Position numbers and translations under genes: made by a program | Notes under the pieces: model-generated | What the model was told of the DNA's origin: nothing | The model's input: only the letters and a program-made list of their open reading frames with translations | The model's database searches: none | Part shown: positions 1,164 to 6,299 of the stretch, in pieces | Layout of the letters: each line of letters opens with the position of its first letter | How positions within the stretch are numbered: the stretch's first letter is position 1 | NCBI RefSeq assembly: GCF_009914755.1 | Contig: NC_060940.1 | DNA: 64,000 nucleotides | Reading direction: 5' to 3' (one strand) | Source: the human T2T-CHM13v2.0 reference genome, Homo sapiens

Positions 1164-1448
<285 letters not shown>

Positions 1449-1694
1449 GCACCCTGTGTGATTCTGATGCACCCCAATCCTTGAGAAGCACTCCTCTTCA
1501 CTGGAAGCAGAGCACACACCTGATCTTGACTCTCTCCACACAACAAATCGTCCAGGGCTACCAGAAAGCACCATAACTTACTGGCTTTTCCCAACTTGTT
1601 TCCCAGAGACATTTTCAGCCTCATTTCCACCCTTCCCTTCTAGATCCCCACCATTCTAGATTCCCACCATCCCTGCCCCGTTTTAAGTTTGCCT

Positions 1695-1949
1695 CTATTC
1701 ACCTAAAAACATATGGACTATTCCATATGGACTGAGCATGAAAGAAATATAGTTCCTCAAAGTAAATTAAGGAGCTGTTTTCAGAGGAAAGGAAATGGAT
1801 GGTGGATAGGCAAGAAAATGTGGCCCACTAGAATTCTATATGGTGCTGCATATTGTGCTGTATACATATATGGTGCATGCGTATGTGTACATATGTGTAC
1901 ATGTATACATTACATGCACATATACCATATGTGTGTATATGGTGCTGTA
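1695..1949 (+). repeat. Upstream copy of ~250-bp direct repeat (partner 3712-3952)
   Basis: About 90% identical, including a 62-bp exact match tagttcctcaaag...ggtggataggc. Confidence 0.95.
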
Positions 1950-1953
1950 GGTA

Positions 1954-2223
1954 TATACATGCGCATGTATACACCATATACATGCGCATGTATACACCAT
2001 ATACATGCGCATGTATACACCATATACATGCGCATGTATACACCATATACATGCGCATGTATACACCATATACATGCGCATGTATACACCATATACATGC
2101 GCATGTATACACCATATACATGCGCATGTATACACCATATACATGCGCATGTATACACCATATACATGCGCATGTATACACCATATACATGCGCATGTAT
2201 ACACCATATACATGCGCATGTAT
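1954..2223. repeat. 23-bp minisatellite (TATACATGCGCATGTATACACCA) x ~11.7
   Basis: Unit starts at 1954, 1977 ... 2161, 2184, 2207; identical copies. Confidence 0.97.
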
Positions 2224-2411
2224 CCATGCGCATGCATAGGCATGTATATATATGTATATGTATACACGTATATGGTATATACATGTACATGTATATGTAT
2301 ACACGTATATGTATATACATATACGTGTATATGTATACACGTATATGGTATATACATGTACATGTATATGCATACACGTATATGGTATATACATGTACAT
2401 GTATATGCACA
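2224..2411. repeat. Degenerate TA/CA/TG simple repeat
   Basis: Recurrent gtatatgtatacacgtatatggtatatacatgtacat units. Confidence 0.85.
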
Positions 2412-2504
2412 TCGTTAATTCTCATTCCCTGAATCTGTTTTGCTATTTAGCCCTCATCCCTGTGCCTTTGAATAGCCTATAATGTCTTCCACATTCTTAA
2501 GGGC

Positions 2505-2757
2505 CTTCTCATCTCCTACTTATCTTCAATACCCAGCTCAAATATTGACTCTGTGCAGCTCTCCTCAATGGTCCTGAGCACCCTGTGGTTCTGCTCAGTC
2601 ACCCACACATGCCAGGATTAGATCACTTCCCTCAAATGTCACTCTGCCAGATCTGACTCTTCACTCCACTGAGAAGGCACTCAAGTGTGCACACTCAGAG
2701 CTTAGCACCTGCCTGGAACACGCGAGTTCGTCAAGGACATGTCTTGATTGAGTGAAG
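2505..2757 (+). mobile_element. L2 3' end fragment
   Basis: cttcaatacccagctcaaatat; gcttagcacctgcctggaacac...gattgagtgaa. Confidence 0.5.
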
Positions 2758-2889
2758 TCCATCAGCACAAAGTCACTTGGGCACAGGCATCTTGCTGTGG
2801 GATAAAACGTAACATTTGTGAACTCTGGGTTGGGAAACTATGTGGTAATTCACACTTAATAGGTCAGAGATATCTCAGAGATAAGCTGC

Positions 2890-2932
2890 CCAACCTACTC
2901 ATGCTCCTTCTGTTGTTTCGTTTGTTTCCCAG
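2890..2932 (+). promoter_or_regulatory. CDH13: 3' splice site of CDH13 intron 2 (putative branch region ctactcat, polypyrimidine tract, AG)
   Basis: caacctactcatgctccttctgttgtttcgtttgtttcccAG directly before the exon. Confidence 0.9.
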
Positions 2933-3141
2933 TGACCTTCAGTGACTGTAAGGGAAACGACAAGCTACGCTATGAGGTCTCAAGCCCATACTTCAAGGTG
3001 AACAGCGATGGCGGCTTAGTTGCTCTGAGAAACATAACTGCAGTGGGCAAAACTCTGTTCGTCCATGCACGGACCCCCCATGCGGAAGATATGGCAGAAC
3101 TCGTGATTGTCGGGGGGAAAGACATCCAGGGCTCCTTGCAG
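2933..3141 (+). CDS. CDH13: CDH13 (T-cadherin) internal coding exon 3, 209 bp, prodomain; phase 1 start, phase 0 end
   Basis: Translates to (L)[69 protein letters not shown], which I recognise as the human CDH13 propeptide. Preceded by a pyrimidine tract and cccAG (2931-2932), followed by cag|GTAAC (GT at 3142-3143). Confidence 0.97.
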
Positions 3142-3227
3142 GTAACACATCTGTTTGAGATAACTTGGGTTCAAGGAGGACATTAGGTTCTGTCTGTCTT
3201 ATGTGGAAAATGGGTCTTTAATTTATT

Positions 3228-3833
3228 ATGTTGGCTAAGATTCCTTTTGTTATTGTTGTTGCAAATGACAGAAATCCAACTCAAAAAATGTAGATGAGGG
3301 GCAGCGGGAATTAATTGATTCATGTAACTAATTGAGGCATAGTTCGTGGATTAATTCATGGAACTATTTTAGGGATACTTCTGCCTTCAGGCGTGGCTGA
3401 AGCTGTCCAAATCAGCTTTAATCCCTGTGCATCTCGTGGCTCCATTTTCCTTTTATTAGATGTATTGAGACAGTCACATCTCTCCCTGCCTCCCAAGGTG
3501 GAGGTCTCAGCAACTACCCTCTTTCTGCTGGTCTGAAGTCGCCTGAGAAAGCATCTCTTCAAGACGATGCTAGCAAAACCTTGGAATTCAGTCTCGTAGG
3601 TTAGATCATGTGTCCACCCCTGAACTAAACATGGTGTCCATTGGGTTGTGATGTTCTGGTTGGCCACGTCTCGGTCACATTTCTTTTCCTGAAGCCAGGG
3701 CAGAGTCAGCCCTATTCACCTGAAAACTCATGGACTGAGAGTGAAAGAAATGTAGTTCCTCAAAGTAAATTAAGGAGCTGTTTTCAGAGGAAAGGAAATG
3801 GATGGTGGATAGGCCAGAAAAGGTGACCCACTA
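3228..3833 (-). mobile_element. MLT1K-like MaLR LTR
   Basis: gttgcaaatgacagaaatccaactcaa, gatcatgtgtccacccctgaac, and terminal aaggaaatggatggtggataggc...cccacta motifs. Confidence 0.7.
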
Positions 3834-4073
3834 GAATTGTATATGGTGCTGCATATTGTGCTGTATACATATACGGTGTATGTGTATGTGTACATATGTG
3901 TACATGTATATATTACATGCACATATACCACATGTATGTATATGGTGCTGTATGTGTATATGTTGTACATGTATGTGTATACCATATACAGGCATATGTA
4001 CCATATACTTATGTGTATATGTACACATACATATGGTATATGTGCATGTAATGTATACACATATGTATACATC
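3834..4073. repeat. TA/TG-rich simple repeat
   Basis: Alternating purine-pyrimidine low-complexity sequence. Confidence 0.85.
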
Positions 4074-4171
4074 CACATTTAATATATCAAAGATATCTCA
4101 AAGCTAACCTGCCCAACCTACTCATGCTCCTCCTGTTGTTTTGTTTTGTTTCCCATTGACCTTCAGTGACT
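4074..4171 (+). repeat. Degenerate copy A of the exon-3 acceptor region plus first 15 exon bases (AG>AT)
   Basis: Aligns to 2851-2947 at ~89%; cccAT at 4152-4156. Confidence 0.95.
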
Positions 4172-4266
4172 TCAGTATATCTATGTGTGTATATGTATAT
4201 ATGTATATGTAATTGTTTACGGTTCTGTATATATATACGGTGTATATGTATGTCTATATGTATACA

Positions 4267-4366
4267 TTTGCATTTAACAGGTCATAGGTATCTCAGAGAT
4301 AAGCTGCCCAACCTACTCATGGTCCTTCTGTTGTTTTGTTTTGTTTCCCAATGACTTTTGGTGACT
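4267..4366 (+). repeat. Degenerate copy B of the exon-3 acceptor region plus first 15 exon bases (AG>AA)
   Basis: Aligns to 2849-2947 at ~88%; cccAA at 4347-4351. Confidence 0.95.
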
Positions 4367-6299
4367 TCAGTATATATATGTGTGTATATGTGTATACGTA
4401 TGTACAGGCATACACATACTATATATGCGCATATACTGTGTATATGTATGTGTGTATATACATACACATGGTATATCTGTATTATATGTGTGTGTAATTG
4501 CATATCGTGCTTCTCGTTTGCCAGGCAGCAGTGCTTGTTCCCTTCCACAGGCACATGCATGCAGATCCCTGCACTCCCACACATATGCATACACTTTATA
4601 AGTGTCACAAACTGCCATTCAGGCTTCCCGATTGTGCCATTCGGAGACTTTTTGCTACTACTGACTCCTGCCTTCTTCACCAGGAGCTCAGGGACTCCAC
4701 CTTCGTGAGAAAAGGAGGGCAAGACACACAGCAGGATTCCAGCCAAACAATGACTTAATGATGGCATGCCCCTGCTTGGCATGCCTAGCCTTCTCTCCTA
4801 CCTGCGAGCTTGGTCTTCCTCGATTTTTCACAGCCCCTAATTCACATCCCTTTTCTCCACCTGCCATATTAGCCACATCCCTGCTTGATCTACTCATTTT
4901 GTTCAGTGGTGGAGCGAGTGTGGGTCACACAGCTGGGAGCAGAGACAGTACAACTGGCAATGTGAGAGTTACCTTCCCGCCAGTGCTGTCTGTGTGATCT
5001 TGAGAGCATCATATAGCTTCTTTATCTGTAGAATAGAGAGGTTAAACAGCCTGCAGTGGCAAATAAGTGGCTCATGTGCCACCCTACTGTCACCGTGCTC
5101 GTGGCAGATATTGCTAATAACCCCTGGCTTAGCCTGAGTATCCTTCTCACTGCAATGCTTCTGGAACCTACTATCAATTGATCATTTAGTGGTGTTTCTG
5201 AGGGTGGAACCTATCTGCCATTCCTGGGCTGGATGAACTTCACAATTCCCCTTCAGCATCTGTGAAGCTGTGAGTTAAGGATAGATGGCAACCTAAAAAC
5301 CAATGTACGGCACGTCAGTCATGTTTCAGAGCAAACTGGATATTGGTGAATTCATACCAGTGTGGAAATCCATTGACACCACAAAGGCAAGCTTTTCTCT
5401 TACTTAGCCATGACCAATGGTCACAGCATCTCACTAATCTGTGATATAAATTATGTGGCAAATATCTAAAGCAACAAAGTTGCCAGGATATACAGCAAAA
5501 ACAATGTTCCATAGAAACATGGAAATGGTATGGTGAGGGGGTTTGCCCATGGGCTTGAATGCATTTAGATGGCGATTGTTCTTCGTGAATGGTGGCTCAT
5601 CTTTCTATCTGGAAAAGATACTGTCATCGTATTTTGCTTCAAAGAGAGCAGAAGATCTTCTGGGCAGGTTCTCGGGACCAACCCCACCTTGAGGGCCTGG
5701 GAGAGCTGGGTTCATTATGAAAACTCAGCCACGCATTGTTTGTACCTCAAGTTTCTGTGAGATGCCATCCAGAGACAAAGCTCCCCTGAGTCCTGGCTGT
5801 TTCTCGCTTGCTGCTGTCTGTACGCATTTTCGACAAAACTTGCCTGTGATTGTTTTTGCTTCTTATAAAGGGGGCGGAGGCTGCCGTGTCCTTCAGTTTG
5901 CCAGACTTCAGCAGAATGGGGCATTCATCTCCCACGTCCAGTAATTTTATGAGATTTGAAAAAAGGCTTTGTGAAGATGTGTAGCTGTGTCCTTCATAAA
6001 AACGCCTCAAAAAAGGAAAAAAAAATAAAAAGAAAATGAAGGAAAACAAAATAGATAGCAAAAGAATCCCTCTGAAGAGAGCACATACCTCAATGGATAT
6101 GCACGTGGTATGTTTGCAGGTCCTACTGTGTGCAGCCAAGTGGGCCAGCTGCTAGAGAAGAAAATCAGTGAGTGCCTGAGTCAGCTCAGCTCCTGTTGGG
6201 GAGGGAATACGAATGTGTGCATTGATGCTTGGGTACCAGGCGGGGAGCTAACAGTGATGGATGATCTCTGCATTTGGAGAGGGGAGAGGTCAAGGGGAG

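What the first reader, a model, noticed from the sequence alone, without database searches (positions are those of the whole stretch)
4074..4370. Two copies of exon 3's own splice acceptor in intron 3, each with the AG destroyed differently
Seen: 2851-2947 (branch region, pyrimidine tract, AG, first 15 exon nt) recurs at 4074-4171 and 4267-4366 at ~88-89% identity. Both copies keep ctactcat and the pyrimidine tract. The G of the AG is T in copy A (4156) and A in copy B (4351), and copy B has also lost the next AG (cag>tgg). Both share a 1-nt insertion and a tcagtatat tail, so they derive from one insertion that then duplicated with a period of ~195 bp. Inference: two different hits at one critical base suggest selection against a competing acceptor at the start of a very long intron. 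The remnants could still bind SF1/U2AF2 as decoys. Residual TTCAG sites (AG at 4165-4166, 4174-4175, 4369-4370) could serve as cryptic or recursive acceptors.
Basis: partly seen in the sequence, partly recalled or inferred. Interest (0 to 1): 0.8.

Follow-up and report, generated by a model that had tools for sequence, protein, structure and literature searches.

The report
Decayed acceptor copies from local duplication
Two broken copies of the CDH13 exon 3 splice acceptor really do sit in intron 3, but they are part of a larger, repeat-driven local duplication and look like ordinary decaying debris rather than sites disabled by selection.

Summary
The native acceptor (about 2848-2947; AG 2931-2932) recurs at 4071-4171 (88%) and 4271-4366 (89%). 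These are the only three matches in the whole assembly.

The 171 nt at 1727-1897, in intron 2, recur at 3730-3900 at 94.2%, followed by the same TA/TG-rich hairpin-forming minisatellite. The acceptor copies therefore lie inside a roughly 0.8-kb copied block (about 3706-4520) derived from 1690-2426 plus 2848-2947. The 411-nt stretch 2428-2838 is absent from it. The 195-nt period is a secondary duplication within the array.

Selection on the AG is not shown:
- A second three-state site exists at 2867.
- AGs upstream of the branch site are lost as often (5 of 12) as acceptor-competent ones (3 of 4; p=0.57).
- Copy A loses G generally (6 of 17 G against 2 of 80 other bases).
- Copy A keeps a good AG 10 nt further on.
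- No residual AG is followed by GT, so simple recursive splicing is out.

The branch-site/pyrimidine core is less diverged than its flanks (p=0.002), and this is unexplained. No primate sequences or RNA data were available. Interest is low.

The parts
1690..1834 (+). Native 'leader': unique intron 2 sequence that is copied into intron 3
   Evidence: 1727-1897 matches 3730-3900 at 161/171 = 94.2%. There are only 2 matches in the whole assembly. The left end of homology lies at about 1690-1693 / 3706-3709.
1835..2410 (+). Native TA/TG-rich palindromic minisatellite. It includes a 23-mer repeated 11.8 times at 1953-2223 and a 37-mer repeated 4.2 times at 2252-2407.
   Evidence: TRF. Inverted repeats I1-I25. 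As single-stranded DNA, 1940-2240 folds at -121.6 kcal/mol, z = -13.7.
2428..2838 (+). Single-copy intron 2 stretch that lies between the minisatellite and the acceptor and is absent from the intron 3 block
   Evidence: One match in the assembly. It has no homologue at 4519-5600: local score 11 against a shuffle mean of 11.8.
2848..2947 (+). Native exon 3 acceptor, the source of the copies. It holds the branch motif ctactcat at 2895-2902, the pyrimidine tract 2904-2930, the AG at 2931-2932 and the first 15 nt of the exon.
   Evidence: The exon start at 2933 comes from the supplied RefSeq annotation.
2933..3141 (+). CDH13 exon 3 (coding). Its donor GT is at 3142.
   Evidence: Supplied annotation. 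The donor reads CAG|GTAACA, 7 of 9 consensus positions.
3706..3837 (+). Copy of the leader, starting 565 nt into intron 3
3838..4061 (+). Copy of the 5' part of the minisatellite. It is hairpin-forming, and the hairpin ends where copy A begins.
   Evidence: 1727-2071 matches 3730-4078 at 83.7%. Inverted repeat I10 has arms 3886-3942 and 4022-4078. Fold z = -3.9.
4062..4171 (+). Acceptor copy A. Branch motif and tract are kept, AG is now AT (4155-4156), and the next AG at 4165-4166 is intact.
   Evidence: Firm homology starts at about 4071.
4172..4256 (+). Minisatellite spacer between the copies. It begins with the shared tail tcagtatat.
4257..4366 (+). Acceptor copy B. Branch motif and tract are kept, AG is now AA (4350-4351), and the next CAG is now TGG (4359-4361).
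4367..4520 (+). Distal minisatellite stretch, ending in a possible remnant of the native boundary between the array and the single-copy stretch (4498-4518 against 2405-2426)
   Evidence: 2284-2426 matches 4371-4518 at 69.7%. The boundary match itself is weak: 42 of 1000 shuffles and 6 of 110 control stretches reach its score.
3694..3706 (+). Possible direct repeat flanking the whole copied block. Its partner is at 4520-4532.
   Evidence: 12 matches with 2 gaps. 64 of 2000 shuffles and 24 of 374 control pairs reach the score, so this is weak.

Best explanation
The two acceptor copies are non-functional debris of a complex local duplication centred on a fragile, hairpin-forming TA/TG-rich minisatellite.

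Proposed sequence of events:
- A block of intron 2 was copied about 2 kb downstream into intron 3, at about 3706. The block comprised the leader at 1690-1834, the minisatellite, and possibly the first ~17 nt after it.
- Either in the same event or soon after, about 100 nt spanning the exon 3 acceptor (2848-2947) was copied into the new array. The likely route is template switching or templated break repair at short TATGT/GTA microhomologies.
- Array slippage or unequal exchange then duplicated a 195-nt unit of array plus acceptor, giving copies A and B.
- Since then the copies have decayed. The AG losses are part of a general, G- and AG-biased excess of substitutions in the parts of the copies next to the array junctions. 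They are not a targeted removal of the acceptor.

Shown: the copy structure, its confinement to this locus, the shared derived characters, and the pattern of substitutions.

Inferred: the copying mechanism, the order of events, and neutrality.
For: Confinement to the locus:
- The acceptor segment has 3 matches in the assembly, the leader 2, and the intervening 411 nt only 1. This is a local duplication, not an interspersed repeat.

Structure:
- Leader plus array start: 1727-1897 matches 3730-3900 at 94.2%, and 1727-2071 matches 3730-4078 at 83.7%.
- The copies are embedded in array sequence on both sides.
- The arrays are strongly self-complementary, with z = -13.7 and -3.9 (inverted repeats).
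- Copies A and B share 2 substitutions, one insertion and the tail. The unit spacing is 195 nt.

No acceptor-specific signal:
- There are two three-state sites, 2867 and 2932, against 0.82 double-hit sites expected. P(>=2) = 0.20.
- AG is lost at 5 of 12 upstream positions against 3 of 4 downstream, p = 0.57.
- In copy A, 6 of 17 G are hit against 2 of 80 other bases, p = 0.0003.
- The core's lineage-specific rate (2 of 90) is close to half the leader's pairwise divergence (10 of 171). The core therefore looks neutral and the flanks look accelerated.

No sign of use:
- Copy A retains a usable AG at 4165-4166, with 14 of 18 pyrimidines and 42 nt from the branch A.
- None of the 52 GT sites in 4150-4800 reaches 7 of 9 donor-consensus matches. 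The native donor has 7.
- The supplied RefSeq table lists no exon here.

Published background:
- Elevated variant density around structural-variant breakpoints is described in PMC4937565. I saw only the search listing and the start of the abstract.
Against: - The branch-site plus pyrimidine-tract core is significantly less diverged than its flanks: 2 of 90 against 16 of 104, p = 0.002. I chose that partition after seeing the data. If the flanks are the true neutral clock, the core would be constrained or gene-converted.
- The canonical AG is lost in both copies by different substitutions. If the leader rate is the neutral rate, this has probability of only about 0.003.
- Downstream AGs are lost at 3 of 4, and the test against the upstream AGs has very little power.
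- The microhomologies are short.
- The flanking direct repeat and the boundary remnant are both weak, at p about 0.03-0.06.
- No outgroup, RNA or binding data could be consulted.
Confidence: 0.65

Rival explanations
1. Purifying selection disarmed the copies. An intact duplicate of a strong acceptor about 1 kb into a very long intron captured the exon 3 donor. Alleles that destroyed the AG were therefore favoured, independently in each copy.
For: - Different substitutions fall at the same critical G in both copies.
- Copy B also lost the next AG.
- The neutral probability of losing the AG in both copies is 0.003-0.08.
- 3 of the 4 acceptor-competent AGs are gone.
- Intron 3 extends beyond the window, so it is more than 60 kb long (supplied annotation).
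Against: - Copy A keeps an AG 10 nt downstream with the same tract. This is the position of the native exon's own second AG. The acceptor is therefore shifted rather than removed.
- Upstream AGs that cannot serve this tract are lost at a similar rate, 5 of 12.
- A second three-state site lies at 2867.
- Copy A shows a general loss of G.
- No good donor lies downstream to define a pseudoexon: 0 of 52 GT sites reach 7 of 9 consensus matches.
Confidence: 0.2
2. The AG-less remnants are functional. The conserved branch site and pyrimidine tract bind SF1/U2AF2 as decoys, or a residual TTCAG serves as a regulated cryptic acceptor flanked by UG-rich repeats. Either would tune the processing of the long intron.
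For: - The core is kept better than the flanks, 2 of 90 against 16 of 104, p = 0.002.
- The branch motif is exact in all three copies.
- The flanking arrays are TG-rich, with 11-37 TG dinucleotides per array.
- Decoy exons that regulate intron retention are a published concept (PMC6097662, PMC7373989). I saw only the search listing and the start of each abstract.
Against: - Core divergence matches the presumably neutral leader, so constraint is not needed to explain it.
- The published decoy model calls decoy splice sites essential for activity (abstract start of PMC7373989). Here the canonical AG is gone and no convincing donor follows.
- The residual AGs are not followed by GT, so they are not zero-length recursive sites.
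- No paper links CDH13 to a cryptic exon or to recursive splicing at this place. The searches found 6, 0 and 12 papers. I opened two, and neither is relevant to this site.
- RefSeq lists no exon here.
Confidence: 0.1
3. Retroposition of an unspliced CDH13 pre-mRNA fragment by L1 machinery, with a target-site duplication, followed by rearrangement.
For: - A possible 13-nt direct repeat abuts both ends of the block, at 3694-3706 and 4520-4532.
- The block has the same orientation as the gene.
Against: - The repeat is weak: 64 of 2000 shuffles and 24 of 374 control pairs reach its score.
- There is no A-rich tail at the 3' end of the block (sequence 4488-4545).
- The order of the parts differs from the source transcript.
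Confidence: 0.05

Closest known systems
Replication-based complex local duplication (template switching of the FoSTeS/MMBIR kind) and templated break repair at unstable AT-rich palindromic repeats
   Same: - The copies are confined to one locus.
- Source segments are joined in a non-collinear order, with the 411 nt between them skipped.
- Short shared motifs occur at the junctions.
- There are extra bases at the 3' junction, the tcagtatat tail.
- Hairpin-forming arrays lie at the breakpoints.
- Substitutions are in excess near the junctions, as reported around structural-variant breakpoints (PMC4937565, listing and abstract start only).
   Different: - The event is old and overlaid by array turnover, so the junctions cannot be read exactly.
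- The names FoSTeS and MMBIR are recalled, not taken from a call.
- One event cannot be told from two or three.
Intronic pseudo-acceptors and pseudoexons (false splice sites that are not used)
   Same: - A branch motif and pyrimidine tract of native quality lie deep in an intron with no annotated use.
- No adequate donor follows.
   Different: - Most pseudo-sites arise by chance or from transposable elements. This one is a direct paralogue of the neighbouring real acceptor, so its decay can be read against the original.
Decoy exons that regulate intron retention (PMC6097662; PMC7373989)
   Same: - Splice-site-like elements inside a large intron that could engage the intron's terminal splice sites.
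   Different: - The published decoy model calls decoy splice sites essential for activity (abstract start). Here the canonical AG is lost in both copies and no good donor follows.
- No retention data were available.
Recursive splice sites in long vertebrate introns
   Same: - Position near the start of a very long intron, with a strong pyrimidine tract.
   Different: - The defining AG|GT juxtaposition is absent at all residual AGs.
- No paper pairs CDH13 with recursive splicing: 0 papers.
Segmental duplication that creates a new intron (PMC3265369)
   Same: - A small genomic duplication that copies splice signals across an exon-intron boundary.
   Different: - In that case the duplicated signals become a working intron (title and abstract start only). 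Here the copy lies wholly within an existing intron and is not known to be used.

Membership tests
Interspersed repeat / transposable element | Many dispersed copies in the genome | tested here: not met
   The acceptor segment has 3 matches and the leader has 2, all at this locus. The intervening 411 nt has 1 match. The tool notes that counts of very common words are lower bounds.
Local complex duplication by template switching or templated repair | Paralogous segments restricted to the locus and joined in non-collinear order | tested here: met
   1727-2071 is copied to 3730-4078, and 2848-2947 is copied to 4071-4171 and 4271-4366. The stretch 2428-2838 is absent from the copy.
Local complex duplication by template switching or templated repair | Microhomology or small insertions at the junctions | tested here: inconclusive
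   TATGT is shared at 2839-2843, 4062-4066 and 4257-4261, and there is a tail of extra bases at the 3' junction. However, these motifs are abundant in the arrays.
Local complex duplication by template switching or templated repair | Secondary-structure-forming repeats at the breakpoints | tested here: met
   As single-stranded DNA the arrays fold with z = -13.7 and z = -3.9. Inverted repeat I10 ends at 4078, inside the start of copy A.
Recursive splice site | AG immediately followed by GT, so that a 5' splice site is regenerated | tested here: not met
   The residual AGs are followed by TGA, TAT and TAT. AGGT occurs in 3700-4700 only at 3821, 4279 and 4286.
Recursive splice site | Junction reads or saw-tooth RNA-seq profile | not testable with these tools
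   No RNA data were available.
Decoy exon | Intact 3' and 5' splice sites bounding a cryptic exon | tested here: not met
   The canonical AG is lost in both copies. 0 of 52 GT sites in 4150-4800 reach 7 of 9 donor-consensus positions. This is a crude consensus count, not MaxEntScan.
Decoy exon | The host intron is retained, and retention depends on the decoy | not testable with these tools
   No RNA data were available.
Sequence under purifying or directional selection | Substitution pattern differs between splice-critical and non-critical equivalent sites | tested here: inconclusive
   AG loss is 3 of 4 downstream against 5 of 12 upstream, p = 0.57. The core against the flanks gives p = 0.002, but the core rate equals the leader rate. 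No outgroup was available.
L1-mediated retrocopy | Target-site duplication plus a 3' poly(A) | tested here: not met
   The direct repeat is weak, and there is no A-rich tail at 4488-4520.

The most novel reading that the evidence does not exclude
After a local duplication planted two exact copies of the exon 3 acceptor about 1 kb into a very long CDH13 intron, selection removed the tract-proximal AG in each copy. It left the branch site and pyrimidine tract intact, with 2 lineage-specific changes in 90 core positions against 16 in 104 flank positions. The result would be AG-less SF1/U2AF2 landing pads, flanked by UG-rich hairpin repeats, that influence how the exon 3 donor is paired across the long intron. 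That would be a naturally 'disarmed' decoy whose history can be read against its living parent site.
Probability: 0.1. Interest if true: 0.55.

Novelty: new member of a known kind. Interest (0 to 1): 0.2.

Why it matters
As it stands this matters little. It is a small, old, locus-specific duplication of the kind that unstable AT-rich palindromic minisatellites produce, and it left decayed splice-signal copies in an intron.

It has some modest uses:
- It is a clean natural example in which a pseudo-acceptor can be compared base by base with its parent.
- The three look-alike sequences (84.5-89% identity by the different measures) can mislead read mapping for CLIP or RNA-seq at the real exon 3 acceptor.
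- The perfect 23-mer array beside exon 3 is probably length-polymorphic.

If primate comparison showed repeated, independent AG loss with a preserved core, it would become a tidy case of selection against a competing splice site.

Tried and rejected
- **Interspersed repeat.** Rejected by the whole-assembly searches.
- **Simple tandem duplication of 1690-3705.** Rejected. Nothing at 4519-5600 matches 2428-2838, and the self-BLAST gave no match of 2950-3705 to anything downstream.
- **Simple 'copy 1690-2950, then delete 2428-2838'.** Not favoured. Array sequence, and possibly the native boundary between the array and the single-copy stretch, follow copy B. That boundary match is weak.
- **Target-site duplication.** A candidate 13-mer pair was found but is not significant enough to rely on.
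- **APOBEC-type context for the G losses in copy A.** I checked this by eye, and only 2 of 6 hits fit. Dropped.
- **Literature.** The searches for CDH13 with 'cryptic exon', with 'recursive splicing', and with TDP-43 plus intron gave nothing on this site.
- **Not available here.** MaxEntScan and SpliceAI, primate orthologues, population variation, RNA-seq and eCLIP were all unavailable. Donor strength was judged only by a count of matches to the textbook 9-mer consensus.
Full report
**1. The observation**

The native exon 3 acceptor has the following parts (exon start from the supplied annotation):
- branch motif ctactcat at 2895-2902
- pyrimidine tract to 2930
- AG at 2931-2932
- exon from 2933

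It recurs twice in intron 3. The repeat finder gave families with spacings of 1223-1224 and 195 nt. A self-BLAST gave 2839-2947 against 4062-4171 at 85.5% and against 4257-4366 at 84.5%. A search of the whole 3.1-Gb assembly gave 88% (2848-2947 against 4071-4171) and 89% (2853-2947 against 4271-4366), and no other match anywhere. An 18-mer covering the branch motif is exact in all three copies, where 0.06 matches are expected.

In the 97 aligned columns 2851-2947 the differences are:
- 6 changes private to copy A
- 8 changes private to copy B
- 2 changes shared by A and B (2855 C>T; 2919 C>T at the native CpG)
- one shared 1-nt insertion (4144/4339)
- 2 sites where all three sequences differ

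One of the three-state sites is the G of the AG, which is 2932 G in the native, 4156 T in A and 4351 A in B. Copy B also changed 2940-2941 CA to TG, which removed the next AG. The shared tail and the residual AGs at 4165-4166, 4174-4175 and 4369-4370 are also there.

**2.

The acceptor copies are not an isolated insertion. The same self-BLAST shows 1727-2071 (intron 2) matching 3730-4078 (intron 3) at 83.7% over 355 columns. The first 171 nt, 1727-1897 against 3730-3900, are 94.2% identical. This 'leader' occurs only twice in the assembly.

Behind the leader, in both places, lies a TA/TG-rich minisatellite. The native array runs to about 2410. It contains a perfect 23-mer array (1953-2223, 11.8 copies, 100% matches) and a 37-mer array.

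The 411 nt between the native array and the acceptor (2428-2838) are single-copy. They have no counterpart behind the intron 3 arrays.

The map of the intron 3 block is therefore:

| Coordinates | Content |
|---|---|
| 3706-3837 | leader copy |
| 3838-4061 | array |
| 4062-4171 | acceptor copy A |
| 4172-4256 | array |
| 4257-4366 | acceptor copy B |
| 4367-4500 | array |
| 4498-4518 | possible remnant of the native boundary between array and single-copy stretch |

The boundary remnant is weak. 42 of 1000 shuffles reach its score.

A possible 13-nt direct repeat abuts both ends of the block (3694-3706 and 4520-4532). It is also weak: 64 of 2000 shuffles and 24 of 374 control pairs reach its score.

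The arrays are strongly self-complementary as single strands, with z = -13.7 for 1940-2240 and z = -3.9 for 3838-4061. One long inverted repeat (3886-3942 / 4022-4078) ends inside the start of copy A.

**3. Most likely origin**

The parts are confined to one locus, are joined in a different order from the source, skip 411 nt, and sit in hairpin-prone repeats. This points to a replication-based or break-repair event, or a few such events, at an unstable array:
- The leader and array were copied about 2 kb downstream.
- The ~100-nt acceptor segment was copied into the new array, with TATGT shared at the 5' junction and a few extra bases at the 3' junction.
- A 195-nt unit was then duplicated (4051-4206 against 4246-4401, 85%).

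The mechanism and the number of events are inference. A plain tandem duplication, and a plain 'copy then delete' model, fit less well (see Tried and rejected).

Using recalled primate neutral rates of about 1-2 x 10^-9 per site per year, the leader divergence of 5.8% suggests an age of roughly 13-30 million years. This is an estimate, not a result.

**4. Is the double hit on the AG evidence of selection?**

Under neutrality, the chance that both copies lose the AG depends on the rate assumed:
- about 0.003 at half the leader divergence
- 0.025-0.04 at the copies' own lineage rates
- 0.08 at the rate of the flanks

Three internal controls weaken the inference.
- Site 2867 also shows three states (G, A, T), and it lies upstream of the branch site. 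With 0.82 double-hit sites expected, two or more occur with P = 0.20.
- Of the 8 AG dinucleotides in the native 97 nt, those upstream of the branch site were lost in 5 of 12 copy-instances. Those downstream were lost in 3 of 4 (p = 0.57). AGs as a class were lost in 8 of 16 instances against 17.7% expected (p = 0.003).
- In copy A, 6 of the 8 lineage-specific hits are at G. That is 6 of 17 G against 2 of 80 other bases (p = 0.0003). Five of the six are the G of an AG.

The AG losses therefore belong to a broader loss of G or AG that is not confined to splice-critical positions.

Copy A is also not disarmed. Its next AG (4165-4166) has C at -3, 14 of 18 pyrimidines upstream, and lies 42 nt from the branch A. 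It is the counterpart of the native exon's own second AG at 2941-2942.

**5. An observation that cuts the other way**

The branch-site plus tract core (2886-2930) carries 2 lineage-specific substitutions in 90 site-lineages. The flanks carry 16 in 104 (Fisher p = 0.002). I chose this partition after seeing the data.

There are two readings.
- If the leader is the neutral clock (10 differences in 171, about 2.9% per lineage), the core is neutral and the flanks are about five-fold accelerated. That would suit error-prone copying near junctions. Elevated variant density around structural-variant breakpoints is in print (PMC4937565; listing and abstract start only).
- If the flanks are the clock, both the leader and the core would have to be homogenised by gene conversion or constrained.

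The leader is the largest sample and has no evident function. Without an outgroup this remains open, and it is entered in the notebook as unexplained.

**6. Function**

Nothing supports use of the copies.
- The supplied RefSeq table lists no exon here.
- None of the 52 GT sites in 4150-4800 matches 7 or more of the 9 donor-consensus positions, whereas the native donor matches 7. This is a crude count.
- The residual AGs are followed by TGA or TAT, so they cannot regenerate a donor as zero-length recursive sites do.

The literature searches found nothing on this site:
- CDH13 with 'cryptic exon': 6 papers. I opened one, which only lists CDH13 as differentially expressed.
- CDH13 with 'recursive splicing': 0 papers.
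- CDH13 with TDP-43 and intron: 12 papers. I opened one, which lists CDH13 among FUS-bound long-intron genes.

Decoy binding of SF1/U2AF2 cannot be tested with these tools.

**7. Comparison with known kinds, and verdict**

The thing works like a pseudo-acceptor left by a local complex duplication.
- It is not a transposable element. That was tested and not met.
- It is not a recursive site. The defining AG|GT was tested and not met.
- It is not a decoy exon in the published sense. Intact paired sites were tested and not met; retention could not be tested.

The 'one insertion' is really part of a larger block, and the selection and decoy inferences are not supported by the internal controls, though they are not excluded.

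Confidence by reading:
- neutral debris: 0.65
- selection against the AG: 0.2
- functional remnant: 0.1

Interest: 0.2. Novelty: a new member of a known kind.

Noticed in passing
window 1953-2223: A perfect minisatellite lies about 700 nt upstream of exon 3. It has 11.8 copies of a 23-mer at 100% identity, each unit holding an 18-nt palindrome, and folds into a row of hairpins as single-stranded DNA (z = -13.7). Perfect identity suggests very recent expansion and probably length polymorphism. The intron 3 copy shows only one recognisable unit of this kind, near 4425-4440 (seen by eye in the sequence, not counted).
   Followed up: partly
window 2931-2946: The native acceptor carries the hexamer AGTGAC twice, 10 nt apart (2931-2936 and 2941-2946). 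This gives a second TTCAG acceptor 10 nt inside exon 3. Use of it would shift the reading frame. Whether it is ever used was not checked.
   Followed up: no
window 1709-1735 versus 3725-3739: The native leader has an extra ~15 nt that looks like a small tandem duplication (catatggact...catatggact). The intron 3 copy lacks it (alignment).
   Followed up: no
window 2864-2883: The native intron carries tcagagata twice, 11 nt apart, just upstream of the branch site. The G residues of these CAGs are among the sites lost in the copies.
   Followed up: partly
window 3694-3706 and 4520-4532: A possible 13-nt direct repeat flanks the whole copied block. Statistically it is weak. An empty orthologous site would settle whether it is a target-site duplication.
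   Followed up: partly
window 1400-1449: An A-rich tail of an Alu-type repeat, with matches to many other places in the window (rows starting at 1400). It is ordinary.
   Followed up: no
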